Origin: a virus
Taxonomy: Duplodnaviria; Heunggongvirae; Uroviricota; Caudoviricetes
Strand: one strand, 5' to 3'
Length of the DNA stretch: 64,000 nt
IMG/VR virus record: IMGVR_UViG_3300025326_000020
Made by a program: the position numbers and the translations under genes. Each line of letters starts with the position of its first letter. Positions within the stretch are counted from its first letter, which is position 1. Below the pieces are notes generated by a model, which was given only the letters and a program-made list of their open reading frames with translations, did no database searches and was not told the DNA's origin. Shown here piece after piece: positions 49,160-64,000 of this stretch.

Positions 49160-49235
49160 CCTCCTTGATTCAGTAGCAAGAATCGAACTTGCACATTGAC
49201 GCCGAGTAACCAGCCGCCTCTTCCATTTGGGCTAT
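49160..49235 (-). ncRNA. tRNA-like element or pseudogene with no foldable anticodon arm
   Basis: perfect acceptor TTCAGTA/TACTGAA and T-arm GCAAG-TTCGATT-CTTGC; 74 nt; central region fails to form a 5-bp/7-nt anticodon arm. Confidence 0.4.
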
Positions 49236-49368
49236 ACTGAACTTAGTAAGTTAAGGTTACTGCTAGCGACCTCCACAGCATACGTACGATACTGACGGAA
49301 CCCATTCGCCTGACCCGTATAGTCCTACTGCCATCGTGCCCGTCGACACTCCCTCACCTTAACTTACG

Positions 49369-49854: not shown

Positions 49855-50046
49855 TTATAACTCCACTAGTTCTATTCGTGTACTATAGTTGAATCATCAT
49901 ATTCAGTTGGCCCGTCCTTGTACAACTCACGGTACTGTTTGAGTCCAATTGAAAACTCGAACGCGCGGTCGCTATCACCTTTGATTTCCGCACGCTTTAT
50001 TTCAAGTAAGTATTCACGTTCAATAGTATCAAACTTCTTGCTCATG

Positions 50047-50119
50047 TGGACAGTATCGGATTCGAACCGATCGCCTTCGCATTGCAGGTGCGATGCTCTA
50101 CCTAATGAGCTAACCGCCC
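50047..50119 (-). tRNA. tRNA-Ala (anticodon TGC) with unusual C33
   Basis: D-arm GCTCATTAGGTAGAGC; anticodon arm TCGCA-CCTGCAA-TGCGA; T-arm ATCGG-TTCGAAT-CCGAT. Confidence 0.6.
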
Positions 50120-50216
50120 TAGTGAGTGCTGTTCTATGTAGTTAACACTACAGATCTCAAACTTTATGGAATACCTCGCGAGTACCCAATGGCTAGCACT
50201 CATAGCCAAGATTATA

Positions 50217-51218
50217 TCAGTTGATAAGCAGCAACTTAGTACCAGGAACCAACTTGCGGTTCACCGATGTTGATTGCACAAATACGTCGAACTTGTCATT
50301 ATCTTCTGGTGAAACTCGAACTTCTTCTGGACGCAAACCAAGCATATCACGAACCTGATCACCTGAGAAGACTCTGCCTGTGGATTTTTCTAGTACAGCA
50401 ATGTTCTTTTGTGGTTGAATAGATTCTCTCTTTGTAAGTTGGTAGTAAGCAATACCAAGGTAAAAGTTGTGTCCCTTGCCAATTACCCACTCACGAATAG
50501 GAGCAGCTTCATCAACATCAAGCATAGTGAATTTGGTTTTAGGCAGTGCCTTAAGCTTCGCTGCCTTGATGGTAGCCTTGTTTAGTGCAGTTGCATCCAT
50601 CTGGAATAAAGATCTGGAACCACGCACACCCGATGTTCGACTAACCATGAAATTTTCAGTTGCTTGTCTGATAGTCTTACCAACTTCAACAACACCTTGT
50701 GCACTGGTAGCATCCCAAATTGCGATGTTGTCTGCTGGGAAACCAAACTTCTTAGCTTCAAATTTGCACCGTTGATCAGGTACTAAGACAGCCACAGTCC
50801 AATGATCTGGTTGTGTTGCCAATCGGTTGAGTAGATCTGATGGACGTCGATGACTTGCATTTTCCTGTCCATCAGTAAGAACGTATGTTAGGAACGCGTG
50901 ATCTCCATAAAGTTCAGGAGTATGTCCTAGATCTTCTTGTGACTTTAGAGTTGCATCGATCAGTGCAGTCATTCCCGCCGTACGGTAGTGCTTTGCAATA
51001 GATGGCAGACGAAGAACATCCTTGTCGTATACCACGCACTGTACAGCATCGGAAAAGACATAAACACTAACTCTAGTTTCTTGATCCAATTCCTTAGATC
51101 GTTGTGCTAGGTATGCGGTTTGTGCATCTGCCACCTGAACAACTTCTCTTGACAAATCTCTCATGGAGTCAGATGCATCAAGAACAAGAGCAATGTGATT
51201 AATATAATTTGCTGACAT
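50217..51218 (-). CDS. von Willebrand factor A (vWA) domain protein
   Basis: N-terminal MIDAS-like LVLDASDSM...VYVFSD; 333 aa. Confidence 0.6.
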   Translation of the reverse strand: MSANYINHIALVLDASDSMRDLSREVVQVADAQTAYLAQRSKELDQETRVSVYVFSDAVQCVVYDKDVLRLPSIAKHYRTAGMTALIDATLKSQEDLGHTPELYGDHAFLTYVLTDGQENASHRRPSDLLNRLATQPDHWTVAVLVPDQRCKFEAKKFGFPADNIAIWDATSAQGVVEVGKTIRQATENFMVSRTSGVRGSRSLFQMDATALNKATIKAAKLKALPKTKFTMLDVDEAAPIREWVIGKGHNFYLGIAYYQLTKRESIQPQKNIAVLEKSTGRVFSGDQVRDMLGLRPEEVRVSPEDNDKFDVFVQSTSVNRKLVPGTKLLLIN

Positions 51219-51247
51219 GATATCCCTTTTGTTATAGTTTAATTGAG

Positions 51248-51319
51248 TAGTCCCATAGGGAATCGAACCCTATCCTACGCGGTGAAAGCGCGCAAAGCTA
51301 ACCAATACTCAATGGGACC
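51248..51319 (-). tRNA. tRNA-Glu (anticodon TTC)
   Basis: acceptor GGTCCCA/TGGGACT; anticodon arm GCGCG-CTTTCAC-CGCGT; T-arm TAGGG-TTCGATT-CCCTA. Confidence 0.65.
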
Positions 51320-51520
51320 GAATGCTCAGATGTACTTATTACCTACCATACCTTGTTGAGCTAGCTTACCTAACCGTCGCCAGGTAGAATGTACTTTCTG
51401 CAACTGATCTGGACGGTTAATTGTACTGGTAAACTTGTTCAGGAACTCACGTTCGATGGTACTATATGGCGTTTTAGTGCTGTATACCAGCGTGTTGTCT
51501 ACCATGAGCCCATTTCCTGT

Positions 51521-51709
51521 CTAGTCGAATACCTTGTTACAATTGGTACAAACCCATCGCCTCTTACCATTAATTGGTGGCAATGATTTTATATAGCTAA
51601 CAACCGGTATGGCATTGGGATCATGATGCCAACATCTTTGTTGAATTCTTTTTATAGTTGATATAGCAGTAATTGCGAATTTATACTTGAATACAACAAA
51701 TTCCATCAA
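51521..51709 (-). CDS. small zinc-ribbon protein
   Basis: C-terminal WVCTNCNKVF. Confidence 0.35.
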   Translation of the reverse strand: MMEFVVFKYKFAITAISTIKRIQQRCWHHDPNAIPVVSYIKSLPPINGKRRWVCTNCNKVFD

Positions 51710-52092
51710 GAACCAACCTGTTGACCGTCATTGTCCCAGTGAAACTCAACCACTGGTCGGTGCACACGACAGTTAACACAGTAAGTGGCACCGTAAAATT
51801 TTGGGTCACGAGCATAGGTTTCTGAAATCGATTGTGACATTGTTGTTACAACACCACAGTAATCGTGTACATAGCTGTTGCGGTAAGGTCTAACAAAACC
51901 CTTACCACGTTCCTCTTCGGACAGAACCAAATAAACCTCAGCCTGTGGTACTGGCGGCCCATCTAATGATTCTGCCCCACGTGTTAATCTAGGATCGCTA
52001 GGATCAGATGTTGTTCCTGTCATCGTATCTCCACTGGTGTCAGGTTGGCATGACCTCATCCCATACCAGCTTCTTAGTTCAGTGTTCCGCAC
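51706..52092 (-). CDS. hypothetical protein (YCVNCRVHRP motif)
   Basis: ORF. Confidence 0.4.
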   Translation of the reverse strand: MRNTELRSWYGMRSCQPDTSGDTMTGTTSDPSDPRLTRGAESLDGPPVPQAEVYLVLSEEERGKGFVRPYRNSYVHDYCGVVTTMSQSISETYARDPKFYGATYCVNCRVHRPVVEFHWDNDGQQVGS

Positions 52093-52175
52093 CTGAATAA
52101 TATAAGAAGCCGCTCTTTGAACCTCTAGTACTTATGCGGTCCGTACTGTGTTACGAGTCTAAGCTACACCTGACG

Positions 52176-52247
52176 TCGGGATAGAAGGAATTGAACCTTC
52201 TGCCTCTCGCTCCCAAAGCGAGCGTTCTTCCGATGAACTATATCCCG
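52176..52247 (-). tRNA. tRNA-Pro (anticodon TGG)
   Basis: perfect acceptor CGGGATA/TATCCCG; anticodon arm CTCGC-TTTGGGA-GCGAG; T-arm GAAGG-TTCAATT-CCTTC. Confidence 0.7.
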
Positions 52248-52387
52248 TATGTATTAGGAGGGGAATTAGTTTTGCTGGCGCTAGCAATTCCATGGATACC
52301 ATTGCACTCTTTGAGGAACCAGACAGCGATCAACTTGCTGGCGATGCATAGTCGTCAACTACATCCCCTGTCTAACACGACTACCTG

Positions 52388-52460
52388 TCGACTACTCAGG
52401 AGTTGAACCTGAATCTCCCATGTTATCAGCATGGTGCTTTACCTGTTAAGCTAATAGTCG
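52388..52460 (-). tRNA. tRNA-Ile (anticodon GAT)
   Basis: acceptor CGACTAT/GTAGTCG; D-arm GCTTAACAGGTAAAGC; anticodon arm CCATG-CTGATAA-CATGG; T-arm TCAGG-TTCAACT-CCTGA. Confidence 0.7.
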
Positions 52461-52631
52461 TTGGATGGTGATGAAAATTACCTCACATCCATGTTTCTAT
52501 CTAATCGGCCAGATCGTATAGCATGGATTCTTTTGGCTCTAATCAACGGAGTATGAACAGAACGGCTCACTTGTTAACATACTCTTTTACCATCTAGGTT
52601 TCCTATAGATCGTGCACTATCTACTGGTCCC

Positions 52632-52712
52632 GTGGGTCGGAAGGATTCGAACCTTCATCACCGGCATTGCTGCCCGCTCTACCATTTGAGCTACTAACCC
52701 TCGAACAGCGCA
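52632..52712 (-). ncRNA. tRNA-like element: canonical D-arm and T-arm, GNRA tetraloop hairpin (GGCA-GCAA-TGCC) in place of the anticodon arm, mismatched acceptor; 3' side ends in the CGACCCAC repeat
   Basis: D-arm GCTCAAATGGTAGAGC; T-arm GAAGG-TTCGAAT-CCTTC; no anticodon loop; 5'/3' acceptor strands not complementary. Confidence 0.45.
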
Positions 52713-52853
52713 ATCTTCGTCTTCCAGGACTAGGATACTATTGCTGCCGGTCCCCTGGAAAGGACTTGCACAGAACAGGATTATGAGTCCTGCCCAGTAC
52801 CTTTATCGTGGAGAGTGGTTAGCTCTCCACGCCCGGTTACCAGCCGGGAGCTA

Positions 52854-53087
52854 TTATGGCTTTACTACACCGTGCACAGTAATCTGCATTTGATCACTGT
52901 CTGTCGGTGTGTACTCTTTATGTTCCTGAACAGATACTCTACTTTCTGGAACCATGTTCTTACATTGTTCTACTAACCAACGTAGATCTTCTAGAGTTAT
53001 AGGTTCGTTTATAGATATATCAGTTTGTATTTTTCTACTCACGTGGGGAATCATGGATTTGAACCACTCGTTTGGATTCCGGCCCAA
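52854..53087 (-). CDS. hypothetical protein
   Basis: ORF; partly overlaps a degenerate tRNA-like element. Confidence 0.3.
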   Translation of the reverse strand: MGRNPNEWFKSMIPHVSRKIQTDISINEPITLEDLRWLVEQCKNMVPESRVSVQEHKEYTPTDSDQMQITVHGVVKP

Positions 53088-53122
53088 ACTTTACCGTGCG
53101 TGCACGTCTGCACATCCCCTAT
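53045..53122 (-). ncRNA. degenerate tRNA-like element (T-loop TTCAAAT, GGGG/CCCC ends)
   Basis: T-loop and partial acceptor only; no canonical D or anticodon arms. Confidence 0.3.
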
Positions 53123-53165
53123 GTCGTTGACATTCAGCCTAGCAAGCATGAGCAGCAATGTCAAG

Positions 53166-53381
53166 CTAGATTTCCTCTTGATCACTAGGCTGTCTATGTT
53201 GCTTACGCTTGTTCTTAATTGCGTAGAATGTCCTATTTAACCGTTTTGCTAGTTGCTGGATGCTTAGATCACCAGTGGCTATCAGTGCAATCTCCCAGTC
53301 TTCCCACGGTTGGTGGTTTCTGGTTGCATATGCTAACGATCTGGCTTGACGTGATTGCTCTATTGCTTTTCTTCTAGCCAT
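53166..53381 (-). CDS. small HTH DNA-binding protein (start moved to internal Met to clear the tRNA)
   Basis: LSIQQLAKRLNRTFYAIKNKR helix-turn-helix-like. Confidence 0.4.
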   Translation of the reverse strand: MARRKAIEQSRQARSLAYATRNHQPWEDWEIALIATGDLSIQQLAKRLNRTFYAIKNKRKQHRQPSDQEEI

Positions 53382-53411
53382 AATTTCCAAAGTTTCTACT
53401 ATTTTACGAAG

Positions 53412-53484
53412 TGCTCTCAGAGGGATTCGAACCCTCACTTATCAGGACTTAAATCTGATGCCTCTGCCGTTGGGCTATGAGAGC
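53412..53484 (-). tRNA. class-I tRNA with leucine-type anticodon TAA (identity uncertain)
   Basis: perfect acceptor GCTCTCA/TGAGAGC; anticodon arm TCAGA-TTTAAGT-CCTGA (one A.C mismatch); T-arm GAGGG-TTCGAAT-CCCTC; discriminator A. Confidence 0.55.
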
Positions 53485-53626
53485 TTGTGTTGGAATCATC
53501 GAACTTCTTAAAACATGCTTGACATTGTATAAACCTAGTATTATTTATTGCGACCCCTAAATAATACACCTCATCTTGACCACATTGCGGACAAGAGTAG
53601 GACATCTTCTTCATTTGAGTCTCCAA
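53435..53626 (-). CDS. small zinc-ribbon protein (C-terminal 16 codons run through the tRNA)
   Basis: CPQCG...CQAC. Confidence 0.35.
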   Translation of the reverse strand: METQMKKMSYSCPQCGQDEVYYLGVAINNTRFIQCQACFKKFDDSNTSSHSPTAEASDLSPDK

Positions 53627-53835
53627 TTCTTTTTACGTTGTGCTGCTCGTGCGCTCAGAATACCACCTACCGTAACTAGAACGTCATAGTTAGGTTCCTG
53701 CACTATGGCAACAATTAAGTTAGCTGCTTGTTGCTGATCCATACCATCTTCTATTAGCGCGATGAAACCAGCTATGACTTCATCAGTCATCCCCATCTGT
53801 CTGGCCTTAGCCACTATGTCATCAGTGCCTTGCAT
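53611..53835 (-). CDS. hypothetical protein
   Basis: ORF. Confidence 0.4.
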   Translation of the reverse strand: MQGTDDIVAKARQMGMTDEVIAGFIALIEDGMDQQQAANLIVAIVQEPNYDVLVTVGGILSARAAQRKKNWRLK

Positions 53836-53855
53836 GATTTCTCCTGATCATTGTC

Positions 53856-53936
53856 GGAACGGCGTAGGCCCCGGACTACATGCGGCTCTGGTGACTCGCC
53901 AGCAGCAAAGCTCCTGACACTTTCCTAGCCGTTCCT
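53856..53936 (-). ncRNA. candidate structured RNA: 8-bp terminal stem GGAACGGC/GCCGTTCC with bulged extension and internal hairpin
   Basis: inverted repeats enclosing ~65 nt in an ORF-free interval 3' of rsr. Confidence 0.3.
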
Positions 53937-54221
53937 TAGTTGACCTAACCCCTATCAACATGTTAGCCCTTTAACGTGGTGACCACTGGATCTATAAGCT
54001 AACTTCCCCACGGTGTTAAGGTGCTTGGCTCCATCGGTGAGTCAATATGCCAAGCCGCACGCTCATCGTGCCCGTCGTGATATAGCATCAGCAATCGTAG
54101 CTTTGCTGCCTCAGCCCCCAAGGCTACTATACCAGCCGTGTCAAACGCAGTTTTGAGTCTCCCTTCAAGGACCAACTCTAACTGGCTCACTAACCTATCC
54201 TATGTAACAAATAGGATAGAC

Positions 54222-54363
54222 TGCCTCGATCGCTGGACTTGAACCAACAACCTCCAACTTAGCATCCCAGATCACTGTGGCCACAGCTCCCCTTTGTCTA
54301 AAACATGTGTGTACACACATGTTTTAGTTTTGTCGGTGCTCTATCCAATTGAGCTAGATCGAG
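54222..54363 (-). ncRNA. candidate Y RNA (YrlA-like tRNA mimic): tRNA scaffold with ~75-nt insertion replacing the anticodon arm
   Basis: perfect 7-bp acceptor CTCGATC/GATCGAG; canonical D-arm TAGCTCAATTGGATAGAGC; T-arm GTTGG-TTCAAGT-CCAGC; insertion contains a 14-bp perfect hairpin CTAAAACATGTGTG/CACACATGTTTTAG and the 12-nt palindrome CTGTGGCCACAG; ~290 nt 3' of the Ro60 orthologue on the same strand. Confidence 0.5.
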
Positions 54364-54434
54364 TAGTGGCTCTCCTTTTTCTCACCAGTGGCGAGAGCCG
54401 TTCCACTAACCGGAATCAGTGCAGTCGCTGAACA

Positions 54435-54653
54435 CTAACCCGGGAGACTAGTTGTTATAGTACGTGAATACAATTCATCCAGCCTTGTATCAATAGGACG
54501 CTTGAAATAAAAACGAACACTACCAATGTGGGTTGCGAGTGGATGAGCTGATACCAATTCCCAACCCTGTAGACCTAAAGAATCTAAGATCTCTTGCTGG
54601 TTATCAGGGTGACGAGCAACTTCGGTTTTGTATTCCCACAACACGTGAATCAT
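54435..54653 (-). CDS. small DUF4177-like protein
   Basis: LGLQGWELVS motif; overlaps the rsr stop. Confidence 0.4.
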   Translation of the reverse strand: MIHVLWEYKTEVARHPDNQQEILDSLGLQGWELVSAHPLATHIGSVRFYFKRPIDTRLDELYSRTITTSLPG

Positions 54654-56281
54654 ATGTTACCAGCCGAGAATTGTGATACCAGTGCTGGTAGATTAGCGTC
54701 GCCACCAACTACGTCTAACATTCCACGATCGCTAGGATCTGCAATCGTAAAGTTGGTAGCAGATGCAGCCGCAACAATCAGCTTAGCATCAATACCTGTC
54801 TTCTGTCGGTACTGCTTTATTGCCTGGAATGGATGTACGTCACCAAACCAAGTCTCATTGTCAGTGTATATCATAAAGGTATCGACTGCAATGTTGTGCT
54901 TGGCAGCGTAAAGCATCGGCTGTGCACAATCCGTACGACCAAACGACATACTGTTAGTAATTCGCAGAACATCATCTAGACGCATTCCAGGAGAAATACC
55001 TAGATCCTTCATTACATCTGAGAAACCAAAGGCTAGATAGAATGGCTCAGTCTTAGCAACTGAAAGGACCATTGCCGCACCAAGTTCAGCAGCAGTCAGA
55101 TCTAGTCCTGATGCAGCCTGCTTCATTGAACCAGAAACGTCAAGACCAATGAAGAATCTCTTGTTCGATGGCTCAACATAACTAAAGGACTTGTAGAATG
55201 CATCGTTCAATGCATCCACAATTACTGGTGAAGTTGTCCAGTCCTTAGGCTTATAAGCTGCTGGACCACCGAAGCCCATAGGGTATTTATATCCACCCTG
55301 TGTCTCACGAGCAATTTGACCCTTAGTATGCACCATTAGTGCAAGCAAGAACTGAATAGGGTGTAGTCTGGTCTTCTGAATCATTGTCTCGTTAGTGAGC
55401 GCGGTTGCAATCTCACGAGCGAACACCATATCGTTGAACATACCCAATCTTGCAAAGCGAGTAATGTTACGAACAAGTGCCTGACCAGTGAGCTGTCCAT
55501 TGCGGTAAAGCTGATGCCAGACTCTCGGTTCCTTATGGTACTGAGTTGGCACAACTTCCCATGGTAGACCAGGAACAGCTTCTAGTACATTCAAAAGTTC
55601 TTCAACATTTGGTGCTGCCTGTGCAATCTTAAAACCTGCAACTAGTTGGTGTTCACCACTATCAAAGCCAGTCTTACCAAGGATGAACTCACCAATACCT
55701 GGTACAAAACTGCCCTTAACGTGTGATAGTCTAAACATATCACGATGAGTCCAACCGTCGCGCTGGCGATACTTAACCGCCTGGTAGGCTAGCTGGTCTG
55801 GCGTCTTGTGGGTGTACCAGTCAGCTACCGCACGGCGCTTGGTCTTGCCCCAACCACCACCACCGTAATAAGTTCCTAGGTACTTTGCGAACTCATACAG
55901 CATAGTAGATGTACGGCACACACGCTGCACCAAGCTAGATAGGTCACGCTTCTTACCATATTTACCAAGTGCCGCCACTACAAAGACAGCGTACTTGTTA
56001 CGGAAAGCACGACCAGATTCTGAAACTTCCAGAACTGTGTCAATAACTAGCTGCTCATCACGATCAATTAGATCAATTAGGAAGTTCACGTTTTCACGTG
56101 TAAGAGGCTTCTCATCCTGGTAGTAGGTACCTTTCTCAGTACCAACAATTAGGAATCTTTCAAGTCTAACCTTGTCTGATACAGCGAAGACAAACCCACC
56201 AGCATTGTTCTTAACCTGATCTAGTCGAGCCTGCTCACGCTGTGTTGATGCAGTAAGGCTGCGAGAAAATACGTCACTCAT
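54650..56281 (-). CDS. rsr: Ro60/Rsr orthologue (TROVE domain + C-terminal vWA domain)
   Basis: N-terminal VRLERFLIVGTEKGTYY aligns with the human Ro60 RLHRFLCFGSEGGTYY region; C-terminal vWA with MIDAS FFIGLDVSGSM; 543 aa, typical Ro60 size. Confidence 0.8.
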   Translation of the reverse strand: MSDVFSRSLTASTQREQARLDQVKNNAGGFVFAVSDKVRLERFLIVGTEKGTYYQDEKPLTRENVNFLIDLIDRDEQLVIDTVLEVSESGRAFRNKYAVFVVAALGKYGKKRDLSSLVQRVCRTSTMLYEFAKYLGTYYGGGGWGKTKRRAVADWYTHKTPDQLAYQAVKYRQRDGWTHRDMFRLSHVKGSFVPGIGEFILGKTGFDSGEHQLVAGFKIAQAAPNVEELLNVLEAVPGLPWEVVPTQYHKEPRVWHQLYRNGQLTGQALVRNITRFARLGMFNDMVFAREIATALTNETMIQKTRLHPIQFLLALMVHTKGQIARETQGGYKYPMGFGGPAAYKPKDWTTSPVIVDALNDAFYKSFSYVEPSNKRFFIGLDVSGSMKQAASGLDLTAAELGAAMVLSVAKTEPFYLAFGFSDVMKDLGISPGMRLDDVLRITNSMSFGRTDCAQPMLYAAKHNIAVDTFMIYTDNETWFGDVHPFQAIKQYRQKTGIDAKLIVAAASATNFTIADPSDRGMLDVVGGDANLPALVSQFSAGNI

Positions 56282-56329
56282 TCTCCGACCCCTTCCGGGA
56301 TATTTTAGTGTTAGTTTTGTTTGGTTAAG

Positions 56330-56422
56330 TGGAGGTATAAGGATTCGAACCTTATCTACACAGTTAGCTAAACTGCGCTCATTAGGTGGCTATCCTAATG
56401 GCCCGTGACCCCCAAGGTACGT
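56330..56422 (-). ncRNA. tRNA-like structured element 5' of rsr (T-arm plus two hairpins; acceptor not closable)
   Basis: T-arm TAAGG-TTCGAAT-CCTTA; hairpins CATTAGG-ATAGCCA-CCTAATG and CAGTT-TAGCT-AACTG. Confidence 0.35.
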
Positions 56423-56454
56423 TGGATATAATTTAAATATAGGCGTGCGCAGGA

Positions 56455-56560
56455 TCATGGGTTCCGATTTGAACGGAAGTTTCACATCTACGATGTGTGT
56501 CTTGCCACATTAGACGACCCTTGATAACCTATACTCGTCCGACCCAACGTAATGTTAGTA
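56455..56560 (-). ncRNA. tRNA-like member of the GTGGGTCGGA repeat family
   Basis: 5' GTTGGGTCGGA-CGAG-TATAGGTTATC; 3' T-arm-like TCCG-TTCAAAT-CGGA followed by ACCCA, which pairs with the 5' TGGGT. Confidence 0.35.
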
Positions 56561-56684
56561 TTCCCAACCACACCAACAATCTACTATTTCTTCTTTAGTC
56601 CATGGTGTGGTGTCATGCTTCAAAATCTTTTTTATCAGTTCAGTTTTACCTGAATTTGGATGGCCAATAACACCTATTGTTTGT

Positions 56685-57959
56685 TCAGAAGTTGAACGGA
56701 GTGGTTGTTCCGTTGGCGTTGAGGTAGGCATTTCCTGATTCCTCGTATCCTACGTTGCTTGGATACCATGAGTGCACTGGTCCTGAGTTACCACATCTAG
56801 CATGCCACAGCTTACCAAATCTGTTATCGAAATACCTTACATTCTTAGCGGTTGGACCACCAGTGTATGTGCAGTATTCGCCAGCAGCATTAAGCAAATT
56901 GTACCGGACTAGCACACCATCCATTGCACCTTCATCATACAGTGACAATGCTGACGAGCAGCCCTGTGGGCCTGGATCAGCAAATACCGCACGATAGCAG
57001 TTTAGGTTGTTGTGCCAAATCACAATGTTCTTGCCATAGTTCATCCCAACAGCCGCTTGGTGAGCACCTGTAGTGTAAACCATTCGCGTCACGTATGAGT
57101 CCGTGATACTTACGTTGTTTCCACCACCAATACCTGTTGAGGTATCATGTACGTAGCAACGTAGACAAGAGTAGTTATCACCATCAGCCACCGGCGCCGC
57201 ATTTGTAACGGCACTAGTGATCTCAACATCTATCAGCTTCAAACCACGATAGTTCTTGCTTGCTGACCAATGTGGTGAGATTGCACCAACAATAAGCGAA
57301 TTACGAATGGTGATGTTTCCTGCTACATCGTGCACCCGAAGAAATCCTTGACTACCTTGGAAAATGCAACCATCAAAAATCAGGTTGCCCTTTTCAAAGT
57401 GACCATCAAAGTTATCTGGGTTACTTGCCGGTGTGGCATCCTGCTCACTACAACGCTTAAGATCTGTCTTCGTCAATCCCGTATGCACATATCCAGTGCA
57501 ATTCTCATCCGGGAACGCTGGCCATGGAGCACAGAATAACACAGGACCAGGACCCGGAGGATCTGTTGGCGTAGGAGTTGGGGTCGTCGTTACTGTGGGT
57601 GTTGGTGTTGCTGTCGGGCTTGGTGTAATGGTAGGACCCACAGTAGGACTGGGTGTCGGAGTAGCAGTAACCGTAGGAGTTGGGGATGGTGTAGGTGTTA
57701 CCTCAGGCAGAGTAAATGCACTGACACAACGAACTAACCATTCTCGATCCGCTGCTGATAATGGTGCAGGATTATCAAGACGGTCCTGACAATCCTGACG
57801 GGCACTATCAGCAGTCGCTGCACTACTAGCACTAGCTCCGAACGACAGCGTGTTTGCGGTCGCTCCGACTACTAGAAACGCAGCGGCTACTGTTGTTACT
57901 AATTTTGCTTTTGTCAGCACTTGCTTGCCTCCTAATGTTGGCATCCCGTGACATGGCAA
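56685..57959 (-). CDS. secreted protein: signal peptide, Pro/Thr-rich linker, right-handed beta-helix (pectate-lyase-like) domain
   Basis: N-terminal hydrophobic signal; TPTPSPTPTVTATPTPSPTVGPTITPSPTATPTPTV linker; repetitive NxxIxN beta-helix-like C-terminal domain. Confidence 0.55.
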   Translation of the reverse strand: MPCHGMPTLGGKQVLTKAKLVTTVAAAFLVVGATANTLSFGASASSAATADSARQDCQDRLDNPAPLSAADREWLVRCVSAFTLPEVTPTPSPTPTVTATPTPSPTVGPTITPSPTATPTPTVTTTPTPTPTDPPGPGPVLFCAPWPAFPDENCTGYVHTGLTKTDLKRCSEQDATPASNPDNFDGHFEKGNLIFDGCIFQGSQGFLRVHDVAGNITIRNSLIVGAISPHWSASKNYRGLKLIDVEITSAVTNAAPVADGDNYSCLRCYVHDTSTGIGGGNNVSITDSYVTRMVYTTGAHQAAVGMNYGKNIVIWHNNLNCYRAVFADPGPQGCSSALSLYDEGAMDGVLVRYNLLNAAGEYCTYTGGPTAKNVRYFDNRFGKLWHARCGNSGPVHSWYPSNVGYEESGNAYLNANGTTTPFNF

Positions 57960-57969
57960 AATTGTTTAC

Positions 57970-58054
57970 GCGGTGAAGGTAGGATTTGAACCCACGGTGC
58001 TTTTACACACTTCCGCTTTCAAGGCGGATGCCTTAAGCCTCTCGGCCACTTCAC
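57970..58054 (-). tRNA. tRNA-Ser (anticodon TGA), type II
   Basis: perfect acceptor GGTGAAG/CTTCACC; anticodon arm TCCGC-CTTGAAA-GCGGA; long variable arm GTGTGTAAAAGCAC; T-loop TTCAAAT; 85 nt. Confidence 0.7.
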
Positions 58055-58105
58055 CAAACTTTATATATGTTTCCATGTTCTTCTAGCTATAAGTTCTCTT
58101 ATTAA

Positions 58106-58453
58106 TTACCAATCATGATCATCGGTTATCGGTGATAGATCATCAGGATCAGCACCAATGAGTTTACAAAGCTTAGTCCAAATTTTGAGCAAACAAATTT
58201 CACAATAATCACGACGGAACTGCTGGTGTACACATTGATCAGGATTGAGATAGATTGATAACTCAGACAGTTCAACATCACCGTCAGGTATTACTAAACC
58301 ACAACCATCGCATGTATAGTGTACAATCTGTATTGTCTGACTTACTTCTCTAGTTTCAACCCTTGTACTGTACCGTCTAGACATGATGCTCCTAGAGTGC
58401 TTTGGATATGTTATCGCAATCGTAAATGAGGCCCCACTTATACAACTATCCAC
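58106..58453 (-). CDS. hypothetical protein
   Basis: ORF. Confidence 0.4.
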   Translation of the reverse strand: MDSCISGASFTIAITYPKHSRSIMSRRYSTRVETREVSQTIQIVHYTCDGCGLVIPDGDVELSELSIYLNPDQCVHQQFRRDYCEICLLKIWTKLCKLIGADPDDLSPITDDHDW

Positions 58454-58578
58454 CGTGGTTAACGCTATCTTCCGTAGCTCCCACCAAATGATGCATAATC
58501 TAGTGTTAGAGTATGATCTCAGGGCTCTCTCGCGATGTAAGTTAAACGATTACTGCCGACCCAAAGCGAGTCTAGAAG

Positions 58579-59370
58579 CTAGCAGCTACGAATGGCAATA
58601 CCTCGTGCTCTAAGCCAAGGTGCTGGATTAATCTGATTCCATAGTCCCTTGTGCACTTCAAAGTGCAGATGTGGTCCGGTCGCATGACCAGTTGCACCAA
58701 CATAGCCTATGATTTGACCAGCCTTAACCCTTTGACCGTTGCTGACAATTTCACGGCTCATGTGTGCATAGTGAGTATATACGTTGCCACCATGATTAAC
58801 AAACACCGAGATACCATAGCCGGAATAAATCCAACCCGACTTATATATTGTACCGGCGGATACCGCACGTATCGGCGTACCTGTGGGCTTTGCCAGGTCT
58901 ACTCCCTGGTGCATACTACCCCATCGCATTCCGAAACATGAGGTAACGGCCGCACCCTTTAGTGGGTTGACCCATTTTGCTGAGCTAATCGTTGGTTTTG
59001 GCTTGGTTGCCGGTGCGACTGTCTTAACGGTAACACCTAATTTGGGAATCCACAACCGTTGGCCGTCCAAAATTATATTCGGATCGGCAACTCTACTCTT
59101 GTTTGCCTTGTAAATGGTGGGCCATAAACTAGCCTTACCATAGTAATGCTTAGCCATTCCAGACAAGGTACCATTAATAGACGGATAAGCTGTAACATTA
59201 GCCCAGAAGCCATCGGCTGATTGTGCTGCACTTATCTTTTCTACTGTGAATTCAACATTCGTTGGTTGTGCTGTGATCGATGCTGCGGTTGCGCTAGTTT
59301 CTGTTAGTAGGAGTGTGCCAATGGCGATTAAACCTGCAATAGTAATTGCGGCTAATCTGGTTCTCTTCAT
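58579..59370 (-). CDS. secreted LysM + M23 (LytM-type) peptidoglycan endopeptidase
   Basis: signal peptide; LysM-like HYYGKASLWPTIYKANKSRVADPNIILDGQRLWIP; M23 motifs HQGVDL and GPHLHFEV. Confidence 0.7.
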   Translation of the reverse strand: MKRTRLAAITIAGLIAIGTLLLTETSATAASITAQPTNVEFTVEKISAAQSADGFWANVTAYPSINGTLSGMAKHYYGKASLWPTIYKANKSRVADPNIILDGQRLWIPKLGVTVKTVAPATKPKPTISSAKWVNPLKGAAVTSCFGMRWGSMHQGVDLAKPTGTPIRAVSAGTIYKSGWIYSGYGISVFVNHGGNVYTHYAHMSREIVSNGQRVKAGQIIGYVGATGHATGPHLHFEVHKGLWNQINPAPWLRARGIAIRSC

Positions 59371-59736
59371 TAGATTCCTAACACTGTGCAGAAACAGACA
59401 GTAGTGCTAGGAATCGAATAAGAAGTCTGTTTCCGCTCCTATATGATTATTAAGTTGTAGCGAAACCTCTCAGCCCTTATGGTTTCATGGGAGCCCTCAA
59501 CAATTGTGCCGCTCCTACTACACACCATACCATTTCAGTGGCATCTGGTATGGCAGCCACCAACGTTAATACCTAACAAGTTCGGCGAAATCCTACGGGG
59601 GAGGAGCCGAACGATTCAGGTATTTCTACAGCCACCGTGACTCTAATAATAAGAACACATTAGTTGTTTCACACACTGATCCCTAAGGAGAGAGTTGTGT
59701 ACAGGTCTCCTGTACCACCATGACTAATGTGTTCAG

Positions 59737-59808
59737 TGCTTTCAACAGGACTCGAACCTGTGCACTCCCGGCTTCAACGGGATGCTCTACCAGCTAAGCT
59801 ATGAAAGC
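59737..59808 (-). tRNA. tRNA-Phe (anticodon GAA)
   Basis: perfect acceptor GCTTTCA/TGAAAGC; D-arm GCTTAGCTGGTAGAGC; anticodon arm TCCCG-TTGAAGC-CGGGA; T-arm ACAGG-TTCGAGT-CCTGT. Confidence 0.75.
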
Positions 59809-59950
59809 ATAACATTAGCTTCTCTTTTCAGAACTCTATGGAAGCTCTTGATGTCTCCAACATCTGTGATCGTATGTTTGACCACGTAGACACCAACGTT
59901 TGATACATAATCTTTTGTGTGGAAATTTTCTATTGAACCATGCTTTCACG

Positions 59951-60022
59951 AGACGCCAGTAGGATTCAAACCTACGTAGATTGGATTTGCAATCCAATGC
60001 CTAATCACTCGGCCATGACGTC
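59951..60022 (-). tRNA. tRNA-Cys (anticodon GCA)
   Basis: acceptor GACGTCA/TGGCGTC; anticodon arm TTGGA-TTGCAAA-TCCAA; T-arm GTAGG-TTTGAAT-CCTAC. Confidence 0.6.
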
Positions 60023-60029
60023 ATTCTTA

Positions 60030-60167
60030 CTAATCGTCAGTAAATGCAGTTGTTGCTAGTTCATCAAACTTCTCTACAATTTCTTTGCGCTTCTTAACTA
60101 CGACTAGAACTAGTGCAACTGCTGCTGCTGCTGTTGCCCCTGCTACTAGCCATACTACCTTAGGCAT
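60030..60167 (-). CDS. unannotated 45-aa single-transmembrane peptide (below the ORF-track size cutoff)
   Basis: ATG at 60167; hydrophobic WLVAGATAAAAVALVLVVV followed by KKRKE. Confidence 0.3.
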   Translation of the reverse strand: MPKVVWLVAGATAAAAVALVLVVVKKRKEIVEKFDELATTAFTDD

Positions 60168-60225
60168 AACTCTCCAATTGATTATAGCGTATGGATATGT
60201 TTATTGATATCGGATATCTTATGTC

Positions 60226-60251
60226 GTTAACCGATTTCATCCGACCCATAC
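60226..60251 (+). repeat. GTTAACCGA-N6-TCCGACCCA repeat copy
   Basis: matches 63892..63916. Confidence 0.5.
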
Positions 60252-60280
60252 GTGAGATACCATTCCCGTGGTTGATCTCG

Positions 60281-60352
60281 TGGTCATAGAAGGAGTCGAA
60301 CCTTCAGGGCTATTGCTTTACAGGCAACGCCAGACACCATATCAGTACGACC
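60281..60352 (-). tRNA. tRNA-Tyr-like (anticodon GTA) with short variable loop and atypical D-arm
   Basis: acceptor GGTCGTA/TATGACC; anticodon arm GTTGC-CTGTAAA-GCAAT; T-arm GAAGG-TTCGACT-CCTTC. Confidence 0.4.
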
Positions 60353-60531
60353 AATTTATTACGTAGTGTGAGGCCATATCATGTTCGGACAAGAACAAAG
60401 AATACACCGAAAAGGTGTCCCTGGATCAGTTGGATCAAGATTGAGTGTGTCATCTAGACGGTGATCATCGCTGCTATGTTCACAGCTTGTACAATTTTCA
60501 GGTTCCATAATCAACACTCACTTTCTTATAG

Positions 60532-60604
60532 GGTGTATGACGGGATTCGAACCCGCGAATGAATAGGATCACAACCTATTTCCTGATGCCCCCGGATCAT
60601 ACAC
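60532..60604 (-). tRNA. tRNA-His (anticodon GTG)
   Basis: acceptor GTGTATG/CATACAC; anticodon arm ATAGG-TTGTGAT-CCTAT; T-arm GCGGG-TTCGAAT-CCCGT. Confidence 0.55.
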
Positions 60605-60606
60605 AG

Positions 60607-60679
60607 TACCAACGGTGGGACTTGAACCCACACTTTACGGCACCTAAAGCCGTTCCCTCTGCCATTGGGGTACGTTGGC
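60607..60679 (-). tRNA. class-I tRNA with leucine-type anticodon TAG (identity uncertain)
   Basis: acceptor GCCAACG/CGTTGGT; anticodon arm ACGGC-TTTAGGT-GCCGT; 5-nt variable loop; T-arm GTGGG-TTCAAGT-CCCAC; discriminator A. Confidence 0.6.
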
Positions 60680-60968
60680 ATATGTACTGTCATCTGGCCT
60701 TCATCTTCCGATTAAGACTTCCACTATGTCACCAAGTGACAGTACACATCTAACACTTCGATTACAATGTACTTCCATGCCACGCATGGGACGAATCTCT
60801 GTGTCTACAACAACCTATGTTAGTTCAGTTGCGGTACAGGCCCTCGCCTATTGTAATCGACATTTATTGGTAACGAATACGTTGACAGTCAATACAAGCA
60901 AAACACCAAACACGCTTGTGCTGCCAACAAATACCTAAGTTACTTAGTCTACGGAAGAAGCGCATTTG

Positions 60969-61526: not shown

Positions 61527-61725
61527 TTTTAACTCTCCAATTAAGGGGAGCAAAAAGAAAAATGGTTCCGATTTGTTAACTAGAGTTTGGGAACCAAAAA
61601 CCATTTCTCCATCTACACTGAATTTTTACAGGCGCTTTAACGTCAGCCCAAAAATTATGTAGACTCAAACGTGGCGACGGTTAACCTTTACAAACCCGAA
61701 GGTTACAGTGTTAACAAACTGGACG

Positions 61726-61810
61726 CGAAAGATATAGGATTCGAACCTATGGAGGTTTTACCCTCAACGAGTTAGCAACTCGTCCCATTAAGCCACTCTG
61801 GCAATCTTTC
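61726..61810 (-). tRNA. tRNA-Ser (anticodon GCT), type II
   Basis: perfect acceptor GAAAGAT/ATCTTTC; anticodon arm ACGAG-TTGCTAA-CTCGT; variable arm GAGGGTAAAACCTC; T-arm ATAGG-TTCGAAT-CCTAT. Confidence 0.6.
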
Positions 61811-61967: not shown

Positions 61968-62149
61968 AAGTCCAAGGTAACACTGGCTCCAATGTTACCT
62001 TGGAGTAAAGTCCAGAGTAGTACAAGGGACGAGAAGTGTGGATGGGCAACCCGCCCAATACTACTCTGGAGTAAAGCCTAGCTAGTCCCAGAGGACAGCT
62101 AGGAGCTATGGAGTGTGGATATGTTATGAGATCGGGTTTGGACTAGGCG

Positions 62150-62223
62150 CCATGCCTTTTCGTCAGGAATCGAACCTGAATCGTCTGATTAATAGTCAGA
62201 TAACCAATACTCTTCCGACCCAC
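62150..62223 (-). ncRNA. tRNA-like member of the GTGGGTCGGA family (anticodon-like loop CTATTAA; no closable acceptor)
   Basis: 5' GTGGGTCGGA-AGAG-TATTGGTTATC; hairpin TCTGA-CTATTAA-TCAGA; T-arm TCAGG-TTCGATT-CCTGA. Confidence 0.4.
62199..62223 (+). repeat. GATAACCAATA-N4-TCCGACCCAC repeat copy
   Basis: matches 63577..63601 and 56523..56548. Confidence 0.5.
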
Positions 62224-62359
62224 ACTCTGAGTCACTAAATTGATAATGATGCATGACATTGGCTTATTAACGCATACTCCTCACATACTGCAAGGTATCT
62301 GTGTCCTGGGTCATGACTCCAGTTAGGCACCCCGGGCACCTATCATATACCAACATCAT

Positions 62360-63267: not shown

Positions 63268-63394
63268 ATAGGCAGTGCAACATTCACAGTGCGGGATTGT
63301 TGCCCCGACTAGGTTCGTCAACCTCCCCTAGTTTATACGTTGCACTGGCTAGAAATCTTCCCTGCCAGGGAAGTTTGGTAGTTCGGATATATGT

Positions 63395-63530
63395 TTGTAA
63401 TCGAAAATGCCTTTCGGCAATGACAGTCGCTCTTCCACTGAGCTACAAGGAAGGATTCGAACCTCCGACATACTGTTTATCCGTTAATCGATTAGCTCCG
63501 ACCCGAACCAAAGCTAGATCCTGTGGATAT
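63395..63530 (-). ncRNA. composite tRNA-like region: D-arm GCTCAGTGGAAGAGC with GNRA hairpin TGCC-GAAA-GGCA, adjacent T-arm GGAGG-TTCGAAT-CCTTC
   Basis: tRNA modules present but not assembled into one canonical cloverleaf. Confidence 0.3.
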
Positions 63531-63576
63531 GTAACCTTCTATCAGAATTATTGTTGCCGCAAATTTTGTCGCGGTA

Positions 63577-63601
63577 AGATAACCAATAGAAGTCCGACCC
63601 A
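63577..63601 (+). repeat. GATAACCAATA-N4-TCCGACCCAC repeat copy
   Basis: matches 62199..62223. Confidence 0.5.
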
Positions 63602-63891
63602 CAGGGTACTTAACGATGTAATGACAGGCGACATCTACTGTTCGTTTAAGACTACCTTCTAAGGGAGAGGAATCCCTGTCATTACATCTTGTGGGTGGGA
63701 TTGGCTATTTCCCAACGATAATCGTCCAGACATGCCGGTGCTGGCCCACGTGGTTGTACTGTAAAAGCAATGGCGATGACCAATGCTTGTTAAATTTGTT
63801 CATAAGTGTTGTGGATATAAAGTAGACATCGGGTTATTGTGCTGACGTATCCGATAAATCAGATACGTTCAACATCATATCATCCCTATGA

Positions 63892-63916
63892 GTTAACCGA
63901 CGTCAATCCGACCCAC
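63892..63916 (+). repeat. GTTAACCGA-N6-TCCGACCCAC repeat copy
   Basis: matches 60226..60251. Confidence 0.5.
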
Positions 63917-64000
63917 AACTAATAAGTCCAGTGAACATGTTTGAGAATTGGAAATTTTTTACACCGACTACGTCGATGTTGTCACTCCCATGTGACTATT

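What the first reader, a model, noticed from the sequence alone, without database searches (positions are those of the whole stretch)
52632..52712. tRNA-like elements whose anticodon arm is replaced by a GNRA tetraloop hairpin
Two loci (52632..52712 and 63395..63450) keep textbook D-arms (GCTCAAATGGTAGAGC; GCTCAGTGGAAGAGC). In the anticodon position each has a short GNRA hairpin (GGCA-GCAA-TGCC; TGCC-GAAA-GGCA) and no decoding loop. They look like non-decoding tRNA mimics rather than random decay. They may belong to the same Y-RNA-like family or to a tRNA-fragment/decoy system.
Basis: seen in the sequence. Interest (0 to 1): 0.6.

Follow-up and report, generated by a model that had tools for sequence, protein, structure and literature searches.

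The report
Phage Y RNA plus orphan tRNA-like
One of the two elements is part of a Y RNA-like small RNA that partners a phage-encoded Ro60 protein (a known kind of tRNA mimic), and the other is a lone tRNA-shaped gene whose anticodon loop has shrunk to a four-base cap, so it cannot decode and is about as likely a dead tRNA as a working mimic.

Summary
Both elements lie on the minus strand of a phage-like tRNA array (27 ARAGORN tRNAs) that surrounds a Ro60/Rsr gene (54650-56281). They are two different things.

It is a 128-nt Y RNA-like gene (63381-63508) of the YrlA type. It has a covarying terminal stem with a GUCGGA/AUAU Ro60-type site, and a T-arm upstream of the D-arm (a circularly permuted tRNA core). 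It keeps a 5-bp anticodon-stem equivalent. The GAAA hairpin sits in a junction and does not replace the anticodon arm. A model built from it finds 77 homologues in Rsr-encoding phage contigs, all on the rsr strand, with strong covariation. The hairpin covaries in close relatives. The window holds six such genes.

Locus 1 (52633-52700) really is a cloverleaf with a GGCA-GCAA-UGCC mini anticodon arm. It scores 35.3 bits against Rfam tRNA, and ARAGORN misses it. It is not inside a Y stem, and I found no homologue anywhere. Its D/T core matches the tRNA-Phe of related phages. My best reading is a lineage-specific, non-decoding tRNA derivative, probably a relic. A free-standing mimic is not excluded, and its 3' end is an 11-nt complement of the Y RNA Ro60 motif.

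This is a known kind of system, of moderate interest.

The parts
52633..52700 (-). Locus 1: 68-nt tRNA-shaped element without a decoding loop
   Evidence: Rfam tRNA 35.3 bits, model positions 1-71. MFE cloverleaf. Not called by ARAGORN.
52694..52700 (-). Locus 1 acceptor 5' strand GGGUUAG. It pairs with CGACCC (52634-52639), with A6 bulged and a U5.G wobble. A at 52633 is the discriminator.
   Evidence: cmscan alignment shows one deleted position in the 3' strand. Coordinates.
52676..52691 (-). Locus 1 D-arm GCUC-AAAUGGUA-GAGC (A14, A15, G18, G19 and A21 present)
   Evidence: The stretch G7-G26 is 20/20 identical to tRNA-Phe(gaa) of relatives L147 and L001.
52663..52674 (-). Locus 1 mini anticodon arm GGCA-GCAA-UGCC (4 bp plus a GNRA tetraloop)
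52640..52656 (-). Locus 1 T-arm GAAGG-UUCGAAU-CCUUC. It is preceded by a variable loop ending in U48, which can pair with A15.
52632..52642 (-). UUCCGACCCAC: a perfect 11-nt complement of the 5' motif GUGGGUCGGAA of the Y-like gene at 62113-62225
   Evidence: The other 29 tRNA or tRNA-like elements in the window reach only 4-7 nt.
63381..63508 (-). Locus 2: complete Y RNA-like gene of the YrlA type (128 nt)
   Evidence: Rfam YrlA matches positions 1-114 at 32.2 bits, E 1.8e-5 in a local search. Stem scan. Model R1 142 bits.
63497..63508 (-). Terminal stem 5' strand GUUCGG plus the conserved GUCGGA motif. Partners are AUAU + CCGAAC at 63381-63390.
   Evidence: Helix 1 covaries at 6 of 6 pairs.
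63488..63494 (-). Second stem UAAUCGA, pairing with UCGAUUA at 63398-63404
63472..63476 (-). Anticodon-stem equivalent ACAGU, pairing with ACUGU at 63423-63427
   Evidence: Helix 2 covaries at 5 of 5 pairs across 72 distinct homologues.
63450..63466 (-). Locus 2 T-arm GGAGG-UUCGAAU-CCUUC, upstream of the D-arm
63429..63443 (-). Locus 2 D-arm GCUC-AGUGGAA-GAGC. It is joined to the T-arm by only 6 nt, so there is no acceptor-like hairpin.
63408..63419 (-). Junction hairpin UGCC-GAAA-GGCA
   Evidence: Conserved in L001 and L002 and covarying in L003 (UGGC-GCAA-GCCA), L071 and L012. Other homologues carry an AAA(A) linker at this position.
54650..56281 (-). rsr: Ro60 orthologue, 543 aa
   Evidence: Pfam TROVE 5e-35 and vWA_Ro60 2e-58. 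3519 homologues, including 'Ro-like RNA binding protein' of Streptomyces phages.
56420..56549 (-). Sibling Y RNA-like gene of the Yrn1 topology. Its tRNA-like module runs in the normal order D, mini anticodon hairpin, T.
   Evidence: Fold z-score -3.0.
63809..63918 (-). Sibling Y RNA-like gene
63521..63604 (-). Sibling Y RNA-like gene
62113..62225 (-). Sibling Y RNA-like gene (T-arm only)
60189..60251 (-). Sibling minimal Y RNA-like gene (63 nt)

Best explanation
The finding joins two unrelated elements from a phage tRNA/Ro60 region.

(A) Locus 2 is the 3' two-thirds of a 128-nt Y RNA-like ncRNA (63508..63381, minus strand).
- Its 5' and 3' ends pair (GUUCGG/CCGAAC) around a conserved GUCGGA/AUAU internal loop. 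I infer that this loop is the binding site for the phage Ro60/Rsr encoded 7 kb downstream on the same strand.
- Its distal end is a circularly permuted tRNA core: anticodon-like stem, variable loop, T-arm, a 6-nt linker in place of the acceptor hairpin, then the D-arm.
- The T-loop/D-loop elbow (G15:C48, G18 G19, T54-A58 present) would mimic tRNA. I infer it recruits a tRNA-recognising partner to the Ro60 RNP, as proposed for YrlA.
- The GAAA hairpin is a clade-specific junction element. It presents the A-rich segment that is single-stranded in other family members.

(B) Locus 1 is a free-standing tRNA-gene derivative.
- Its D-arm, variable loop and T-arm are those of a functional tRNA and nearly identical to the tRNA-Phe of two related phages.
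- Its anticodon region is 4 nt short and closes as a 4-bp stem with a GCAA tetraloop. Its acceptor 3' strand has lost one base.
- If it is transcribed with the array and trimmed by RNase P and 3' nucleases (inferred), it gives a stable L-shaped RNA that cannot read a codon.
- It lacks the anticodon-independent identity marks I checked (G3:U70, a long variable arm).
- I take it to be most probably a lineage-specific relic of tRNA-array turnover rather than a selected mimic.
For: Locus 2:
- Rfam YrlA aligns end to end.
- rsr is present on the same strand.
- Six of the seven GGTCGGA motifs on that strand between 56 and 64 kb have a perfectly complementary 6-nt partner after AUAU.
- Model R1 finds 77 matches in 1.34 Mb of Rsr-phage loci. 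All are on the rsr strand and most lie just upstream of rsr.
- 95.2% of cells pair, against 65.2% in shuffles and at most 50% when partners are slid. 23 of 24 pairs show double changes.
- The hairpin covaries: UGCC/GGCA, UGGC/GCCA, CGGG/CCC.

Locus 1:
- Rfam tRNA scores above the gathering threshold, with a shortened anticodon arm. The MFE fold agrees.
- It has no Y stem and gets no R1 hit.
- The core matches L147 and L001 tRNA-Phe at 20/20 and about 22/24 positions.
- The slot between tRNA-Leu(taa) and tRNA-Ile(gat) holds ordinary tRNAs or nothing in relatives.
- I found no homologue in relatives, IMG/VR or JGI contigs.
- The same array has other single-lesion tRNA-like genes.
Against: Locus 2:
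- The Rfam score (32.2) is far below the YrlA gathering score (69).
- The motif is GUCGGA, not GNCGAA.
- The gene lies 7.1 kb from rsr, not within 4 kb.
- Rsr binding is untested.
- The covariation alignment was fitted to the model.

Locus 1 as a relic:
- Every remaining helix is intact (19 of 20 possible pairs) and all tertiary-core nucleotides are present, including A15:U48.
- The lesion yields a thermodynamically ideal GNRA-capped stem rather than a ragged loop.
- A sibling Y RNA (56420-56549), Y RNAs of relatives, and unrelated viral contigs carry tRNA-like modules with the same 'D, mini hairpin, T' design.
- Its 3' end is an 11-nt perfect complement of the Y RNA Ro60 motif.
Confidence: 0.6

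Rival explanations
1. Locus 1 is a selected, free-standing non-decoding tRNA mimic. An intact elbow and acceptor let it be processed and bound like a tRNA, while the GNRA-sealed anticodon arm makes it inert in translation and uncleavable by anticodon nucleases. It could act as a decoy or competitor for a tRNA-binding factor. Alternatively it could act with the Ro60-Y RNA particles, for example by pairing its 3' 11 nt with the Ro60-binding strand of the Y RNAs.
For: - All helices other than the anticodon loop and all tertiary nucleotides are intact.
- The same module design occurs in the sibling Y RNA 56420-56549 and in Y RNAs of L002 and L005.
- Stand-alone analogues with 4-bp stem plus tetraloop, or with no anticodon arm, occur in other Rsr phages (L076 near 3864, L002 near 9718).
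- Analogues also occur in unrelated viral contigs with perfect, sometimes covarying, acceptor stems: L078 vs L080, L082 vs L115, L104, and L132 with GGC-GGAA-GCC.
- It lies 1.95 kb downstream of rsr on the same strand.
- It has an 11-nt complementarity to the Y motif that is unique among 30 tRNA-like elements.
Against: - No homologue exists, so there is no evidence of conservation or covariation.
- The same-phage contigs are 99.99% identical and uninformative.
- The acceptor stem carries a bulge.
- It has no Ro60-type stem.
- The analogues elsewhere are not homologous and are heterogeneous.
- The complementarity has a rough chance probability of 0.004-0.02 and may be coincidence.
Confidence: 0.3
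2. Locus 1 is a working tRNA with an unusual anticodon arm. ARAGORN's relaxed call is tRNA-Cys, anticodon GCA, loop CAGCAAU.
For: ARAGORN at 80% of its thresholds reports tRNA-Cys(gca) over the element.
Against: - That fold needs two G.G mismatches in a 5-bp stem and A at the universally U position 33.
- It takes two bases from the canonical D stem and starts two bases upstream, with an A.A mismatch in the acceptor.
- RNAfold strongly prefers the GNRA fold.
- The array already has a normal tRNA-Cys(gca) at 59950-60022.
Confidence: 0.03
3. Locus 2 is not one RNA. On this view it is the T-arm of one decayed tRNA followed by the D-arm of the next, which is the 'dimeric tRNA' false positive known for YrlA searches.
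For: Chen et al. 2014 warn of this artefact (PMC4201824). The element lies in a dense tRNA array.
Against: - No tRNA is called on either side.
- The two arms are enclosed by an anticodon-like stem and a terminal stem that covary across 72 distinct homologues.
- The same terminal-stem signature brackets five sibling genes without this arm order.
Confidence: 0.03
4. Locus 1 is read from the plus strand as a Y RNA-like gene, because the plus strand carries GUGGGUCGGAA at 52632-52642.
For: The 11-mer equals the 5' motif of the Y-like gene at 62113-62225.
Against: - There is no AUAU-plus-complement partner within 260 nt on the plus strand.
- There is no GGUUAUC box.
- All 77 family members and all tRNAs lie on the rsr strand.
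Confidence: 0.02

Closest known systems
YrlA (Y RNA-like, Rfam RF02553; Salmonella, Mycobacterium smegmatis, mycobacteriophages; Chen et al. 2014, PMC4201824)
   Same: - Encoded beside rsr on the same strand.
- The ends pair around a Ro60-type motif.
- T-arm then D-arm, with tRNA-invariant nucleotides and a Levitt-type 15:48 pair.
- Known in 22 phages.
- Locus 2 aligns to the model end to end.
   Different: - The score is below the gathering threshold.
- The acceptor-like hairpin between the T-arm and D-arm is reduced to a 6-nt linker.
- The motif is GUCGGA, and its 3' partner strand (AUAUCC) is also conserved.
- There is an extra GNRA junction hairpin.
- The phage has six paralogous genes spread through a tRNA array, up to 7.6 kb from rsr.
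Deinococcus radiodurans Yrn1 (Chen et al. 2014, as quoted)
   Same: It is modelled with a D-like region, then an 'anticodon arm' with a 5-bp stem and a short (6-nt) loop, then the T-arm. This is the arm order of locus 1 and of the sibling gene 56420-56549.
   Different: Yrn1 sits inside a Ro60-binding stem. Locus 1 has none, so it is not a Y RNA by that criterion.
Thermus phage phiLo Yrl1/Yrl2 with phage Ro60 (PMC12135203)
   Same: A phage-encoded Ro60 with Y RNA-like genes upstream of it. The complexes assemble with host PNPase in vitro.
   Different: phiLo has two Yrl genes defined by a CGAA motif, with no tRNA array described around them. Sequence relatedness to the present family was not tested.
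tRNA gene fragments and pseudogenes in prokaryotic and phage tRNA sets (e.g. PMC9897764)
   Same: Locus 1 is tRNA-derived, non-canonical, lineage-specific, and missed or mis-typed by tRNA finders.
   Different: It is full length with all four arms closed. It is not a 5' or 3' fragment and is not riddled with stem mismatches.
mascRNA-type tRNA-like small RNAs (from my own knowledge, not tested here)
   Same: A cloverleaf that is processed like a tRNA but has a reduced, non-decoding anticodon arm.
   Different: It is eukaryotic, cut from the 3' end of a long ncRNA, and has no sequence relationship to locus 1.

Membership tests
YrlA-type Y RNA-like (locus 2) | Encoded on the same strand as, and close to, an rsr/Ro60 gene (Chen 2014 used 4 kb or less) | tested here: inconclusive
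   The strand is the same and rsr is confirmed. The gene ends 7.1 kb upstream of the rsr start. Sibling genes fill the interval, the nearest 139 nt from rsr.
YrlA-type Y RNA-like (locus 2) | 5' motif GNCGAAN0-1G resembling GGUCCGA, near paired 5' and 3' ends | tested here: inconclusive
   The window has GGGUCGGA, which differs from GNCGAA at one position. Many homologues have GUCGAA. The terminal stem is present and covaries.
YrlA-type Y RNA-like (locus 2) | Conserved T-arm-like then D-arm-like stem-loops with tRNA-invariant nucleotides | tested here: met
   Helices 3 and 4 pair in 99.4% and 97.1% of cells.
YrlA-type Y RNA-like (locus 2) | Acceptor-like stem-loop between the T-arm and the D-arm | tested here: not met
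   There are 6 nt between the arms in the window and in L001. Most homologues have 16-26 nt.
YrlA-type Y RNA-like (locus 2) | Reaches the Rfam gathering score | tested here: not met
   32.2 bits against 69.
YrlA-type Y RNA-like (locus 2) | Bound by Rsr in vivo | not testable with these tools
   Needs immunoprecipitation or EMSA.
tRNA (locus 1) | D-arm and T-arm with invariant nucleotides, plus a paired acceptor stem | tested here: met
   The acceptor has 6 pairs with one bulged A.
tRNA (locus 1) | 5-bp anticodon stem with a 7-nt loop carrying U33 and an anticodon | tested here: not met
   The arm is a 4-bp stem with a 4-nt GCAA loop. The only 7-nt-loop alternative is poor.
tRNA (locus 1) | Detected by standard tRNA finders or models | tested here: inconclusive
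   Rfam 35.3 bits is above the gathering score of 29. ARAGORN at default settings does not call it. tRNAscan-SE was not available.
Y RNA (locus 1) | Ends paired around a Ro60-type GUCGGA/AUAU site | tested here: not met
   There is no such stem on either strand and no match to model R1.
tRNA relic / pseudogene (locus 1) | Clear descent from a tRNA gene, plus absence from relatives | tested here: met
   The core is identical to the tRNA-Phe of L147 and L001. I found no orthologue in nine related loci or in the IMG/VR and JGI contig scans.
tRNA relic / pseudogene (locus 1) | No function or selection | not testable with these tools
   The only other copies are 99.99% identical.

The most novel reading that the evidence does not exclude
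Locus 1 is a new kind of phage small RNA: a free-standing tRNA mimic whose anticodon loop is sealed by a GNRA tetraloop. On this reading it works with the phage Ro60-Y RNA particles. It might pair its 3' 11 nt with the Ro60-binding strand of the Y RNAs, or it might titrate a tRNA-binding host factor. It would belong to a wider, undescribed class of anticodon-less tRNA-shaped RNAs seen sporadically in viral contigs.
Probability: 0.2. Interest if true: 0.7.

Novelty: new member of a known kind. Interest (0 to 1): 0.4.

Why it matters
Phage Ro60 and Y RNA-like RNAs are known, but their role in infection is not. This window shows a Ro60 gene embedded in a tRNA array together with six Y RNA-like genes of several architectures. 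These include YrlA-type, Yrn1-type, T-arm-only and minimal 63-nt forms. The family reaches at least 77 members across actinophage-like contigs, and both strands of the Ro60-type helix are conserved. GenBank records of related phages annotate none of these RNAs. The family therefore offers a rich comparative set for asking what the tRNA-like module is for. If the orphan locus 1 turned out to be functional, it would add a Ro60-independent tRNA mimic to that picture. If not, it is simply a decaying tRNA gene.

Tried and rejected
- Megablast of 50000-64000 against the phage collection: no match.
- Rsr peptide patterns from the single sequence in IMG/VR: nothing. The search worked only with an alignment.
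- Exact 34-mer of locus 1 in IMG/VR: nothing.
- Degenerate pattern 'D-arm, 19 nt or less, T-arm' in IMG/VR: 64 non-homologous analogues but no relative of locus 1.
- The same idea with locus 1's own D-loop in JGI metagenomes: two unrelated hits.
- Same-phage contigs L006-L008: 99.99% identical, so no population signal.
- Four further Rsr relatives (P0004, P0014, P0017, P0010): no DNA was available for one, and the others had no locus 1 homologue.
- Decayed tRNA-Glu(ctc) or tRNA-Ala(ggc) orthologue of the syntenic slot: the Ala(ggc) of L002 is only the third-best match, and there is no flank similarity. Ancestry is left open; the core is Phe-like.
- Alanine identity for locus 1: rejected, because the pair is G3-C70, not G3.U70.
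- Y stem around locus 1 on either strand: none.
- Promoter and terminator scan around locus 1: nothing above the shuffle expectation.
- Literature searches for anticodon-less phage tRNA-likes: no description found.

Full report
Context. The window is phage-like. ARAGORN finds 27 tRNA genes, all on the minus strand, between 39 and 63.3 kb, and Rfam confirms them. Inside the array, the 543-aa ORF at 54650-56281 (minus strand) is a Ro60/Rsr orthologue, with Pfam TROVE and vWA_Ro60 domains. It has thousands of homologues. The named ones are 'Ro-like RNA binding protein' of Streptomyces, Mycobacterium and Gordonia phages, at about 51% identity. The closest metagenomic relatives (56-60% identity: L001, L002, L003, L005, L010, L147) share the tRNA order around rsr. 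No near-identical phage is in the annotated collection.

Locus 1, the observation. On the minus strand, 52700..52633 reads GGGUUAG UA GCUC-AAAUGGUA-GAGC G GGCA-GCAA-UGCC GGUGAU GAAGG-UUCGAAU-CCUUC CGACCC A.
- Rfam's tRNA model matches end to end at 35.3 bits (gathering score 29). It has 14 nt where the anticodon arm needs 17, and one deleted base in the acceptor 3' strand.
- RNAfold returns the cloverleaf with the 4-bp/GCAA hairpin as the MFE structure, at ensemble frequency 0.61.
- ARAGORN does not call it. At 80% of its thresholds it proposes a 'tRNA-Cys(gca)' that needs two G.G mismatches, A33 and bases borrowed from the D stem.
- U8, A14, G18 G19, A21, T54-A58 and an A15:U48 pair are all present, as the sequence shows.

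Locus 2, the observation.
- Rfam's YrlA model aligns over its whole length to 63494..63395 (32.2 bits, gathering score 69, E 1.8e-5 in the local search). The order is outer stem, T-arm, D-arm, outer stem.
- Searching the short motif GGTCGGA gave 15 hits in the window against 3.4 expected. Seven of them lie on the minus strand between 56 and 64 kb.
- Six of those seven are preceded by 6 nt whose perfect complement follows an AUAU 60-130 nt downstream.
- This defines six genes: 63918-63809, 63604-63521, 63508-63381 (locus 2), 62225-62113, 60251-60189 and 56549-56420. The terminal stems differ in sequence but always pair: UUGUGG/CCACAA, CUGUGG/CCACAG, GUUCGG/CCGAAC, GUGUGG/CCACAC, GUAUGG/CCAUAC, CGUUGG/CCAACG.
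- In locus 2 the layout runs from 5' to 3' as follows: terminal stem plus GUCGGA; second stem UAAUCGA/UCGAUUA; anticodon-like stem ACAGU/ACUGU; variable loop AUGUC; T-arm; 6-nt linker; D-arm; G; the 3' strand of the anticodon-like stem; the UGCC-GAAA-GGCA hairpin; then the 3' strands.
- So the hairpin is a junction element. The anticodon stem is kept, and the acceptor hairpin is what is missing.

Locus 2, the family. I built a covariance model from the window, L001 and L002 copies, using the five helices just described.
- The model finds 77 matches at E <= 0.01 in 1.34 Mb of Rsr-encoding phage loci.
- Every match is on the rsr strand. Nearly all are full length, and most lie within a few kb upstream of rsr.
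- On the resulting alignment 95.2% of cells form standard pairs, against 65.2% in shuffles and 35-50% with slid partners. 23 of 24 pairs show changes on both sides. The caveat is that the alignment was fitted to the model.
- The junction hairpin is present in about 20 of 72 distinct members. It covaries among the closest ones: UGCC-GAAA-GGCA (window, L001), UGGC-GCAA-GCCA (L003), GCC-GAAA-GGC (L071), CGGG-GAAA-CCC (L012). Elsewhere the position holds a single-stranded AAA(A).
- The literature already reports YrlA-type RNAs next to Ro60 in more than 250 bacteria and 22 phages, a GNCGAAN0-1G motif related to the GGUCCGA contacted by Ro60, and a differently oriented tRNA-like module in Deinococcus Yrn1 (PMC4201824).
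- A phage Ro60 with two Y-like RNAs has been characterised structurally (PMC12135203).
- Locus 2 is therefore a new member of a known kind. The mechanism (Rsr binds the GUCGGA/AUAU helix, and the tRNA elbow recruits a partner) is inferred by analogy and is not shown here.

Locus 1, what it is. It is not enclosed by a Y stem on either strand, and the family model does not hit it.
- It has no detectable homologue. I looked in nine related loci, in IMG/VR by exact and degenerate patterns and in JGI metagenome contigs.
- The three other contigs of the same phage are 99.99% identical.
- Among 992 distinct tRNAs from all loci, the best matches to its non-anticodon parts are the tRNA-Phe(gaa) of L147 and L001. 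G7-G26 is identical at 20 of 20 positions, and the variable loop plus T-arm is nearly identical. The acceptor and anticodon arms are unrelated.
- The slot it occupies, between tRNA-Leu(taa) and tRNA-Ile(gat), holds tRNA-Glu(ctc), Glu(ttc), Ala(ggc), a duplicated Ile, or nothing in relatives. The slot therefore turns over quickly.
- The array also contains other tRNA-like genes with a single clean lesion. One is a tRNA-Trp(cca)-like gene at the syntenic Trp slot that lacks a D-arm. Another is a tRNA-like gene with a 73-nt insertion carrying a 13-bp palindrome in the anticodon loop. A third has a 6-nt loop.
- All this fits a relic of tRNA-array turnover.

Locus 1, what argues for function.
- Every other helix and every tertiary-core nucleotide is intact, and the lesion produces an ideal GNRA-capped stem.
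- The sibling Y RNA 56549-56420 carries a tRNA-like module of the same design: D-arm, 6-bp hairpin with a 3-nt loop, T-arm (z-score -3.0). So do Y RNAs in L002 and L005.
- Stand-alone analogues occur in other Rsr phages (L076, 4 bp plus UAAC; L002, no anticodon arm at all).
- Analogues also occur in unrelated viral contigs, with perfect and in two cases covarying acceptor stems.
- The 3' end, UUCCGACCCAC, is a perfect 11-nt complement of the GUGGGUCGGAA motif of a sibling Y RNA. No other tRNA-like element in the window exceeds 7 nt.
- I estimate the chance probability of that complementarity at roughly 0.004-0.02 and leave it unexplained.

Weighing these, I put about 0.5-0.55 on relic, 0.3 on functional mimic, and the rest on minor alternatives.

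Verdict. It is right for locus 1. For locus 2 the strings are right but the anatomy is wrong. 'Y-RNA-like tRNA mimic' is correct for locus 2. It is unproven for locus 1, which is not the same kind of element. The system is a known kind (phage Ro60 with Y RNA-like RNAs). The extension worth recording is the multi-gene, multi-architecture Y RNA family interleaved with a tRNA array, which is unannotated in GenBank relatives.

Noticed in passing
window 56420-56549, 60189-60251, 62113-62225, 63381-63508, 63521-63604, 63809-63918 (all minus strand): There are six Y RNA-like genes with the consensus N4GG-GUCGGA...(G)GUUAUC...ACAUAU-CCN4 and covarying terminal stems, all upstream of rsr. Only one of them gets any Rfam hit. 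Architectures differ: YrlA-type, Yrn1-type, T-arm only, and a 63-nt minimal form. From memory, the 5' strand also resembles human Y1 (GGUCCGA...GUUAUC); I did not test that.
   Followed up: partly
window 56330-56413 (minus strand); L005 about 9670-9765; L001 about 6810-6900: A conserved ~85-nt RNA lies immediately upstream of rsr. It has a T-arm and an acceptor stem whose third pair is G.U in all three phages, which is the alanine identity pair. Two internal hairpins take the place of the D and anticodon arms, and it ends in ..CCAC. Eight of 27 predicted pairs covary. It might be chargeable by AlaRS.
   Followed up: partly
window 54224-54363 (minus strand): A tRNA-like gene (Rfam 38.8 bits) lies just downstream of rsr, with 73 nt inserted in the anticodon loop. 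The insert includes a perfect 13-bp palindrome, CUAAAACAUGUGUG/CACACAUGUUUUAG. Fold z-score is -4.0.
   Followed up: partly
window 62363-62421 (minus strand): A tRNA-Trp(CCA)-like element sits at the slot where relatives have tRNA-Trp. The anticodon and T arms are intact, but the D-arm is replaced by a few bases. ARAGORN calls it only at a 90% threshold.
   Followed up: partly
window 63050-63137 (minus strand): ARAGORN 'tRNA-???': perfect acceptor, D and T arms, a long variable arm, and a 6-nt anticodon loop GUAUUA.
   Followed up: no
window 52632-52642 versus 62215-62225 (minus strand): The 3' end of locus 1 is an exact 11-nt complement of the Ro60-type motif of a sibling Y RNA, and a 10-nt complement of two others.
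   Followed up: partly
window 56284-56290 (minus strand): A seventh GGUCGGA motif lies 3 nt upstream of the rsr start codon, with no 3' partner. It could be chance, part of the ribosome-binding region, or an Rsr site on its own mRNA.
   Followed up: no
L002 about 9640-9760 and L147 about 9620-9720: These are stand-alone RNAs about 300 nt upstream of rsr, with an 8-bp acceptor stem that covaries between the two phages (UCCGCGA/UCGCGGA versus UCCACGA/UCGUGGA) and a T-arm. In L002 the interior is a D-arm plus a 12-nt linker, with no anticodon arm.
   Followed up: no
viral contigs L078/L080 group, L082/L115, L104, L132, L099 (IMG/VR): These are tRNA-shaped genes with perfect acceptor, D and T arms but 3-5-bp mini anticodon hairpins, some with GNRA loops. 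They occur in phages without an obvious link to Rsr, and two pairs of diverged copies keep the design.
   Followed up: partly
window 49167-49241 (minus strand): ARAGORN tRNA-Ser(act) of only 75 nt. It lacks the long variable arm expected of a bacterial tRNA-Ser.
   Followed up: no
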